Assembly: GCF_006345805.1 (NCBI RefSeq)
Contig: NC_043013.1
Span: forward strand, 13,330,001-13,394,000
Direction: 5' to 3'
Source: Octopus sinensis
Lineage: Eukaryota
DNA: 64,000 nt
Shown piece by piece: positions 11,694 through 59,698 of the stretch (position 1 is its first letter; each line of letters opens with the position of its first letter). The position numbers and the translations under genes were made by a program. The notes below the pieces were generated by a model. It was not told the DNA's origin. It searched no databases and saw only the letters and a list, made by a program, of their open reading frames with translations.

Positions 11694-11788
11694 TTGCCAC
11701 TGAGTTCTGTCTGAAAATACGTTATTTAGTAGACTGTCAATTCTTTTTCTCTTCGATGTAAGCGTGACTTCTTTCAATTCTTTTCTTC
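11694..11788 (-). CDS. TRPM-like exon, repeat B ([32 protein letters not shown])
   Basis: Boundaries attaaag|GA and CAA|gtaaga, 95 nt. Same length and phase as paralog 53349-53443, with homologous intron flanks. Confidence 0.78.

Positions 11789-59698: not shown

What the first reader, a model, noticed from the sequence alone, without database searches (positions are those of the whole stretch)
11694..59698. TRPM-like gene with tandemly repeated SLOG/MHR1-3 modules joined in frame
Seen in sequence: the exon ending ...[23 protein letters not shown] (53349-53443, phase 0) is followed 2.06 kb later by [13 protein letters not shown] (51251-51288) and [19 protein letters not shown]. That is the beginning of a TRPM MHR1, and it continues through a full second SLOG+MHR3 module. 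Three exons occur twice with identical phases: 59610/19210, 58118/17263 and 53349/11694. Established knowledge: canonical TRPMs have one MHR1/2 (SLOG-fold, ADP-ribose binding in TRPM2), and the LAWNR segment is followed by MHR4 and S1-S6. A 2-kb gap seems too short to hold MHR4, the pore and a new gene start, and I saw none there. Inference: this is one protein with at least two concatenated SLOG-MHR3 units, either a multi-sensor TRPM channel or a channel-less poly-SLOG protein. I cannot verify novelty without a database search.
Basis: partly seen in the sequence, partly recalled or inferred. Interest (0 to 1): 0.9.

Follow-up and report, generated by a model that had tools for sequence, protein, structure and literature searches.

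The report
Octopus TRPM with five sensor modules
This octopus gene repeats the nucleotide-sensing front end of a TRPM ion channel several times in one open reading frame, and it is likely the front part of an unusually large channel with five different sensor modules per subunit, where ordinary TRPM channels have one.

Summary
Observation confirmed. The window holds 13 exons of one minus-strand gene; all are AG/GT, phases repeat module by module, and the 33 exons on this contig give 1,265 codons with no stop. The module-2/module-3 joint is already in RefSeq model XP_036366249.1 ('uncharacterized', Octopus sinensis) and in models from two other Octopus species. RNA-type contigs from three studies cross it, by indirect evidence and from sister copies. 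The gene has four SLOG (MHR1/2 + first part of MHR3) modules before an assembly gap. Sister copies continue through an acidic linker into a fifth module, MHR4 and S1-S6, so the complete form is most likely a five-module beta-TRPM channel without NUDT9H. No single contig or transcript shows the whole. The window's copy is one of at least three 92-97% identical copies; whether it has its own pore is open. Modules group by position across species, and none in this species keeps the full ADP-ribose site. They evolve fast (omega about 1.1) with frames intact. I found no description in print. New variant of a known kind.

The parts
59610..59698 (-). Module 2, exon 7 (89 nt, ends phase 2): DSGRAAD helix, carries the R358-equivalent Arg
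58118..58302 (-). Module 2, exon 8 (185 nt, ends phase 1): end of MHR2, start of MHR3
   Evidence: covered by RNA-type contigs in 3 of 4 runs laid
53349..53443 (-). Module 2, exon 9 (95 nt, ends phase 0): LGLEWNK (LAWNR-like) helix, last exon of the repeat unit
51289..53348 (-). 2,060-base GT-AG intron joining module 2 to module 3; no MHR4 or membrane exon in it
51251..51288 (-). Module 3, exon 1 (38 nt, phase 0 to 2): [13 protein letters not shown]
47348..47432 (-). Module 3, exon 2 (85 nt): [10 protein letters not shown], start of MHR1
   Evidence: depth in run X3 equals 85 nt of the contig that also covers 58118-58302
40837..41017 (-). Module 3, exon 3 (181 nt): SLOG core, SVIGG loop
30373..30536 (-). 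Module 3, exon 4 (164 nt): SLOG core
26351..26513 (-). Module 3, exon 5 (163 nt): DPNHTHF; Y295 position is Ser, R302 position is Lys
22113..22216 (-). Module 3, exon 6 (104 nt): G333 position is Glu
19210..19295 (-). Module 3, exon 7 (86 nt, ends phase 2): GSGKAAD, R358 position is Lys
17263..17435 (-). Module 3, exon 8 (173 nt, ends phase 1)
11694..11788 (-). Module 3, exon 9 (95 nt, ends phase 0): diverged LAWNR-like exon
5678..5703 (-). 26-nt micro-exon, first half of the short linker to module 4; the gene goes on beyond the window's low end
   Evidence: like peptide in the O. bimaculoides model

Best explanation
The window holds modules 2-3 of a gene whose TRPM nucleotide-sensing front end (MHR1/2 SLOG fold plus the first part of MHR3) is repeated in frame four times on this contig, and this is likely the front part of a five-module beta-TRPM cation channel whose remainder is cut off by an assembly gap. 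Shown: nine-exon modules with the same phases, starting and ending in phase 0; four of them in a row; in sister copies an acidic micro-exon linker after module 4, then module 5, MHR4 and S1-S6, and no NUDT9H. Inferred: the repeats arose by unequal crossing-over of a phase-0 to phase-0 block inside an octopus beta-TRPM paralog before O. bimaculoides and the O. vulgaris group split; later the gene was copied several times in the vulgaris group. Predicted working: a tetramer with 20 SLOG clamshells. Only module 5 is tied directly to MHR3/4 and the pore, and it has lost three of the six ADP-ribose-site residues checked, so it would act as the coupling unit or read another ligand; modules 1-4 would hang from the linker as extra sensors with different pockets, which widen or tune what opens a still calcium-dependent pore. 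Ligands are unknown; nucleotide-type metabolites related to ADP-ribose are the likeliest guess.
For: Frame: 33 of 33 exons AG/GT, 3,795 nt, 0 stops. Pfam: 4 LSDAT_euk stretches in P0001 and P0002. RNA-type contigs of 430, 381 and 631 nt in runs X1, X2, X3 (three studies) cover exon 58118-58302, show the same depth at 53407, and have 239-316 nt beyond that exon though the next exon is only 95 nt; no listed piece runs into the intron; in X3 the depth of bin 47150-47575 equals 85.1 nt of that contig, the length of the module-3 exon there. Link to the pore: O. bimaculoides XP_052830016/17 ends in exon 6 of module 4 and XP_052830018-21 starts in exon 8 and runs through linker, module 5, MHR4, S1-S2; O. 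vulgaris CAI9735657.1 joins module 4, linker, module 5 and pore. In this genome contig A runs from module 1 to the linker without a gap, and contig F starts with a 93-96% identical copy of the same linker exons and runs to S2 without a gap. Two 94-96% identical copies of the last exon suggest more than one whole gene. Tree: 21 of 21 octopus modules form one clade (SH-aLRT 97) inside cephalopod beta-TRPMs and group by position. An AlphaFold model of a two-module O. vulgaris relative folds both modules, and its top Foldseek matches are TRPM chains. Calcium-site-like motifs EEIHQ and WNIND are kept in the pore-bearing model.
Against: No contig, model or transcript holds all five modules and the pore. 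The window's contig stops at a gap inside module 4. The genome shows three starts of the gene but one module 5, one MHR4 and one S3-S6 block, so some copies may have no pore. The one module 5 has a one-base frameshift in the assembly and copy A has a damaged last exon of module 3. The RNA evidence is indirect (the joint rows were crowded out by repeats; 15 of 263 shown), the runs are RNA by guess only, 1 of the 4 runs laid (X8) showed no cover of exon 58118-58302, and the three contigs carry letters of sister copies, not of the window's copy. Average omega is not different from 1, which also fits relaxed constraint. Gene models in a repeated region can be stitched wrongly: RefSeq models P0004 and P0014 jump between modules.
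Confidence: 0.6

Rival explanations
1. The window's copy is a 5' partial duplicate with no pore. It makes a soluble protein of three to four SLOG modules that would bind or buffer ADP-ribose-type nucleotides, or dock onto full TRPM channels as a modifier.
For: Three copies of module 1 and of modules 2-3 but one module 5, MHR4 and S3-S6 block in the assembly. No MHR4 or membrane match at E<1e-3 in contigs A-E or the 40 kb read of C9011, 19 in contig F. No hydrophobic segment above 1.62 in P0001, P0004, P0011, P0137. O. vulgaris model P0003 puts linker exons directly before the start of another copy.
Against: Every poreless copy here ends at an assembly gap or contig end, and P0001, P0011, P0137 end by reading into an intron. 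O. vulgaris has at least three models that reach module 5 (P0013, P0151, P0164). The last exon is present twice.
Confidence: 0.25
2. The window's copy is a young duplicate or a second haplotype under little constraint, on its way to becoming a pseudogene; the repeated modules carry no function of their own.
For: Omega 1.1, not different from 1; pairwise omega 0.7-1.5 in 8 of 9 comparisons, 3.4 in one. Damaged exons in sister copies. No RNA contig with exactly this copy's letters among those shown.
Against: No stop in 7 module sequences over a tree of 2.5 changes per codon, where 5.1% of point changes make a stop (roughly 45 expected without constraint; the damaged last exon of copy A module 3 was left out). 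Modules keep their order and 76-82% identity to O. bimaculoides. A site model finds both a constrained class (omega 0.27, 24% of sites) and a class above 1. Copies differ by 3-8% in introns and both types occur in O. vulgaris.
Confidence: 0.1
3. Two or more separate short genes lie in tandem, with a poly(A) site after 53349 and a new start before 51288.
For: The joint row itself was not displayed; gene models could in principle fuse neighbours.
Against: 51288 is preceded by a pyrimidine tract and AG and has no start codon; phases match. The same joint is in models from three species. RNA-type contigs continue past the 95-nt exon without entering the intron.
Confidence: 0.03

Closest known systems
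beta-TRPM / TRPM2-like channels (nvTRPM2 6co7, zebrafish 6drj, human 6puo)
   Same: Each module matches MHR1/2 and the start of MHR3 (phmmer E 1.7e-60 to 6co7; Foldseek top hits all TRPM). The family's 3' end has MHR4, S1-S6, TRP box and coiled coil.
   Different: Four to five modules instead of one; no NUDT9H; the Cys-rich segment seen in P0020/P0022 is missing from each module; the ADP-ribose site is altered differently in each module.
Single-module octopus beta-TRPM paralogs (P0016/P0021, P0017/P0018, P0019/P0022)
   Same: Nearest relatives in the tree; same chromosome; no NUDT9H.
   Different: One module; GG-x-K/R loop, R302, G333, T336, R358 positions kept in the five of these six rows that were aligned; 85-95% identical between species against 71-82% for the multi-module gene.
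Two-module TRPM-like gene models in other animals (XP_072049890.1, organism not shown by the tool; Sanderia malayensis jellyfish model)
   Same: Two SLOG modules ahead of MHR4 and a pore in one model.
   Different: Only two modules, independent origin in the tree, unverified models; not described in the papers I saw.
Stand-alone SLOG (LSDAT) nucleotide-sensor proteins of bacteria and archaea
   Same: Same fold (PF18171 also matches); the model for a poreless copy.
   Different: These modules descend from a channel gene, are intron-rich and carry part of MHR3. Burroughs 2015 was seen only as cited in PMC13143021.

Membership tests
TRPM (melastatin) channels | N-terminal MHR1/2 (SLOG, PF18139) | tested here: met
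   4 stretches in P0001, E 3e-204; fold match
TRPM (melastatin) channels | One melastatin region per subunit, MHR1/2-MHR3-MHR4 in that order | tested here: not met
   MHR1/2 plus part of MHR3 is repeated four times before any MHR4
TRPM (melastatin) channels | MHR4 and S1-S6 pore in the same polypeptide | tested here: inconclusive
   Absent from the window's contig, which ends at a gap; present after module 5 in a sister copy and in two other species' models
TRPM (melastatin) channels | Groups with TRPM in a tree | tested here: met
   Modules nest among cephalopod beta-TRPMs (quick tree, SH-aLRT only, 47 rows, no TRPS rows)
TRPM (melastatin) channels | Tetrameric cation channel activity | not testable with these tools
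   needs expression and recording
TRPM2-type ADP-ribose-gated channels | MHR1/2 site residues Y295, R302, G333, T336, T339, R358 (human numbers, from PMC6759353 and bioRxiv 2024.03.18.584035) | tested here: not met
   Module 1: R358 to Pro; module 2: loop with Y295 deleted; module 3: Ser, Lys, Glu, Lys; module 4: Pro, Gly; module 5: Ser, Glu, Gln. O. bimaculoides module 1 keeps Phe, Arg, Gly, Thr, Ser, Arg. Spacing checked on a mammalian TRPM2
TRPM2-type ADP-ribose-gated channels | C-terminal NUDT9H domain | tested here: not met
   PF25969 absent from the pore-bearing models P0013, P0014; the protein ends after the coiled coil
TRPM2-type ADP-ribose-gated channels | S2-S3 calcium site | tested here: inconclusive
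   E-x-x-Q and N-x-x-D motifs found by pattern in P0128; not aligned to human numbering, and not in the window's copy
TRPS (soromelastatin) | Groups with TRPS rather than TRPM | not tested
   no confirmed TRPS row in the tree; best matches are beta-TRPMs

The most novel reading that the evidence does not exclude
Octopuses have a family of giant TRPM channels (about 2,700 aa, 20 SLOG pockets per tetramer) in which each module's pocket has been driven apart by positive selection, and in which module number varies between copies and perhaps between splice forms, because any whole nine-exon module can be dropped in frame. That would be a modular, diversifying nucleotide or metabolite sensor wired to one pore, with poreless copies as soluble partners.
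Probability: 0.3. Interest if true: 0.85.

Novelty: new variant of a known kind. Interest (0 to 1): 0.62.

Why it matters
A 2026 survey of TRPM evolution treats the melastatin region as a constant of the family (PMC13143021, passages). Here it is multiplied, kept in order across Octopus species, and changing fast while the frame stays open. It gives a natural test of an open question: what MHR1/2 pockets bind in TRPMs other than TRPM2, and how a pocket couples to the gate, since five pockets with different residues can be expressed and assayed one by one. It also shows a blind spot: annotation splits the gene into 'uncharacterized' poreless pieces and an ordinary-looking one-module channel, so surveys built on pore sequences miss it.

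Tried and rejected
Direct display of the 53349-51288 joint failed: repeats filled the joint table (15 of 263 rows shown); only one lay was allowed. No listed holder was on record as RNA. Ion_trans search of the genome scored 150 of 313 candidates and listed no TRPM exon on this chromosome, so it says nothing here; a protein query found the pore exons instead. A search for shorter, transcript-derived proteins across module 4-linker-module 5 gave 3 hits of 538 candidates, all O. sinensis models. The idea that copies A and B are two haplotypes was weakened: 92% mean identity over 158 kb of alignments, both types in O. vulgaris; contig E(-) overlaps the window's contig at 97-99% and is likely its allele or true continuation, holding the 5' exons. 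My first dN/dS run had a one-base boundary error in module 3; corrected. The careful tree did not finish; the quick tree is used. Alignment A1 was too poor to fold; A2 was used, and its pTM of 0.62 is not taken as evidence that modules pack together. Of 7 non-octopus proteins with two or more module stretches, I set aside P0138 and P0178 (near-identical jumbled repeats; P0138 flagged unverified) and P0143 (a whole channel followed by a second gene start) as likely artefacts; P0235 is unexplained. No complex prediction was run. Earlier findings: none returned. The stretch 13.96-14.38 Mb of the chromosome and contig C9010 were not read.

Full report
Observation. The exon 53443-53349 ends at a GT in phase 0; 2,060 bases on, a pyrimidine tract and AG precede the 38-nt exon 51288-51251. 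A spliced map of RefSeq protein P0001 onto the window's contig resolves 33 exons; my script left one of the 32 joints unresolved, and with corrected ends (19210 and 17435) all 33 exons have AG and GT, 3,795 nt, 1,265 codons, no stop. The exons come in blocks of nine with the same phases and nearly the same lengths (41/32/38/38, 85/82/85/85, 178/184/181/181, 164/140/164/164, 175/157/163, 113/110/104, 74/89/86, 185/185/173, 95/95/95). The window holds the last three exons of module 2, all of module 3 and a 26-nt linker exon. No MHR4 or membrane exon lies in it.

Databases. The window is C17:13330001-13394000 of its genome. A 64-aa query from one exon found 10 proteins among 31 candidates, all Octopus. 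P0001 is XP_036366249.1, 'uncharacterized protein LOC115221043', O. sinensis; P0002/P0011 are O. bimaculoides LOC106871768; several are O. vulgaris models. P0001 and P0002 have 4 LSDAT_euk stretches and no PF25508 or Ion_trans. So the joint is predicted in public models of three species but not named.

The locus. About 930 kb around the window were read. Gaps split them into contigs. Contig A (+, 13.04-13.29 Mb) holds modules 1-4 and seven micro-exons of an acidic linker. Contig B (-, the window's) holds modules 1-3 and four exons of module 4, then a gap. Contig E holds two head-to-head gene starts; E(-) overlaps B at 97-99% and has B's first exons; E(+) switches from a module-1 intron to the matching module-2 intron (90% identity), a one-module deletion also seen in O. 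vulgaris models P0005 and P0008. Contig C holds the end of module 2 and most of module 3. Contig F starts with linker exons 93-96% identical to the end of A and runs without a gap through the rest of the linker, module 5, MHR4 and S1-S2. S3-S6 and the tail lie at 14.39-14.41 Mb, and a second copy of the last exon, 94-96% identical with its flanks, at 13.958 Mb. More module-4 pieces sit on unplaced contigs C9010, C9011, C10182. Copies differ by about 3-8%.

Link to the pore. In O. bimaculoides the four-module model ends in exon 6 of module 4 and the next accession numbers start in exon 8 and go on through linker, module 5, MHR4 and S1-S2. In O. vulgaris CAI9735657.1 joins module 4, linker, module 5 and the pore. 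Together with the A-F overlap this makes a five-module channel of roughly 2,700 aa the likely complete form (inference). No one sequence shows it whole. The genome has three gene starts but one module 5, one MHR4 and one S3-S6 block, so the window's copy may or may not own a pore. The assembled module 5 has a one-base frameshift in its third exon, and copy A has a deletion in the last exon of module 3.

RNA. No holder was on record as RNA; 9 runs guessed to be RNA held 5-7% of the words of a 1.6-kb query that is about 17% exon. Four were laid on 47150-59900. Repeats filled the joint table, so the evidence is indirect. In X1, X2 and X3 (three studies) one contig each (430, 381, 631 nt; depth 4.36, 55.7, 38.2) covers exon 58118-58302; the same depth shows at 53407 in the next exon; 239-316 nt of contig lie beyond exon 58118 while the next exon has 95 nt; no listed piece enters the intron; intron bin 58652-59077 has depth 0 in all four runs. 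In X3 the depth of bin 47150-47575 equals 85.1 nt at 38.2, and the module-3 exon there is 85 nt. The bin with the 38-nt exon gives 51 nt, so it has other cover too. X8 showed no cover of exon 58118-58302. The contigs carry letters of copies A or C rather than B. So the joint is spliced in sister copies; expression of the window's own copy is not shown.

Origin and rate. In a quick tree of 47 module rows (SH-aLRT only; partial modules under 225 profile positions left out), the 21 octopus modules form one clade (97) inside cephalopod beta-TRPMs and group by position across species; two of those rows are hybrid models. Identity to O. bimaculoides is 76-82% per module, 71% in the linker, 75% in MHR4-S2, against 85-95% for three single-module paralogs. 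On 7 module sequences omega is 1.12 (not different from 1), yet there is no stop over 2.5 changes per codon, where about 45 would be expected. My own site model (370 of 380 codon columns, branch lengths scaled together) favours a class with omega 3.1 on 29% of sites (LRT 36, 2 d.f.). Gene conversion between modules could inflate this.

Pockets. Human TRPM2 binds ADP-ribose in MHR1/2 through Y295, R302, R358 (PMC6759353, passages) and needs G333, T336, T339 (bioRxiv 2024.03.18.584035, passages). These positions were mapped through a mammalian TRPM2 with the same spacing. The conserved cephalopod beta-TRPM keeps them (Phe for Tyr, as in other molluscs). No module of the O. sinensis or O. vulgaris genes keeps the set, and each departs differently; O. 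bimaculoides module 1 comes closest. An AlphaFold model of O. vulgaris P0007 (modules 1-2; mean pLDDT 68.5, mostly 70-90 in the modules) repeats the same alpha/beta pattern twice, and its best Foldseek matches are TRPM chains.

How it likely works. Shown: repeated modules in frame, altered pockets, a pore in the family, no NUDT9H. Inferred from TRPM2: clamshell closure of an MHR1/2 passes through MHR3/4 to a calcium-dependent gate. Only module 5 has that direct path. Modules 1-4 would act as added sensors, or as local buffers, tethered by the linker. Because each module is a phase-0 block, modules can be gained or lost by recombination (seen in E(+)) and perhaps by splicing (suggested by RefSeq models P0004 and P0014, not verified).

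Novelty. Among the best 150 of 230 hits in 1.84 billion representatives, only 3 match a joint-spanning query in one stretch, all Octopus. Of 279 proteins held, 20 have two or more module stretches: 13 Octopus, 7 others; two of the others look like plausible two-module channels. None outside Octopus has an orderly four. Squid and cuttlefish genomes were not searched directly. Paper searches showed no description; one search required three terms, so a paper naming only a locus id would not be listed. I saw passages of PMC13143021 (12 of 32 places; supplements not opened), passages, section 21 and a supplement search of PMC13402157 (it lists a single-module O. bimaculoides TRPM; accession stems of the multi-module models gave no other hit), and passages of bioRxiv 2021.11.14.466824 and 2026.06.15.732245. 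Subscription papers are not covered.

Verdict. A real, expressed-in-kind, lineage-specific multiplication of the TRPM sensor module: a new variant of a known kind. Interest 0.62; it would rise with one long read from module 1 to S6.

Noticed in passing
G000:C17:13849182-13849356: The only assembled module 5 has a one-base frameshift in its third exon, at a short T run; the O. vulgaris model reads through intact. Assembly error or real break; RefSeq skips the exon and so shows an ordinary one-module channel.
   Followed up: partly
G000:C17:13174557-13174600: Copy A has an internal deletion in the last exon of module 3; several O. vulgaris models also skip this exon.
   Followed up: partly
G000:C17:13788850-13791763: Copy E(+) switches from a module-1 intron to the matching module-2 intron: a whole-module deletion by recombination, so module number varies between copies.
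   Followed up: partly
P0275 (XP_072049890.1) and P0156: Gene models in other animals with two SLOG modules ahead of MHR4 and a pore; independent of the octopus case in the tree.
   Followed up: partly
P0235: Unnamed 1,188-aa protein with two near-identical SLOG domains separated by a leucine-rich-repeat-like stretch.
   Followed up: no
P0128 residues 895-912: The pore-bearing model reads IYAEFFLEEY where the single-module paralogs read MYGELFL: a Gly-to-Ala change at the likely selectivity filter.
   Followed up: no
G000:C10696:17071-20403 and C6303 (three places): TRPM-like genes with few or no introns and stops inside the matches, on unplaced contigs; retrocopies or another organism's DNA.
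   Followed up: no
window 13028-16331: Inverted repeat with arms of about 1,550 bases, 98.4% identical, 206 bases apart, inside the intron before exon 11788; a 3-kb, 99.97% inverted repeat lies just outside the window at C17:13315476-13322886.
   Followed up: no
window 33100-37400, 39600-40800, 54900-57000, 60640-61599: Broken non-LTR retrotransposon (reverse transcriptase) pieces in the introns.
   Followed up: no
window 27684-28608: Two short minus-strand frames that look, by recall, like a Helitron helicase piece and a mariner transposase piece.
   Followed up: no
G000:C17:13574560-13606974: The gene's 5' end is a run of small repeated exons coding for an acidic, Ser/Gln-rich, predicted-disordered tail whose length differs between copies.
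   Followed up: no
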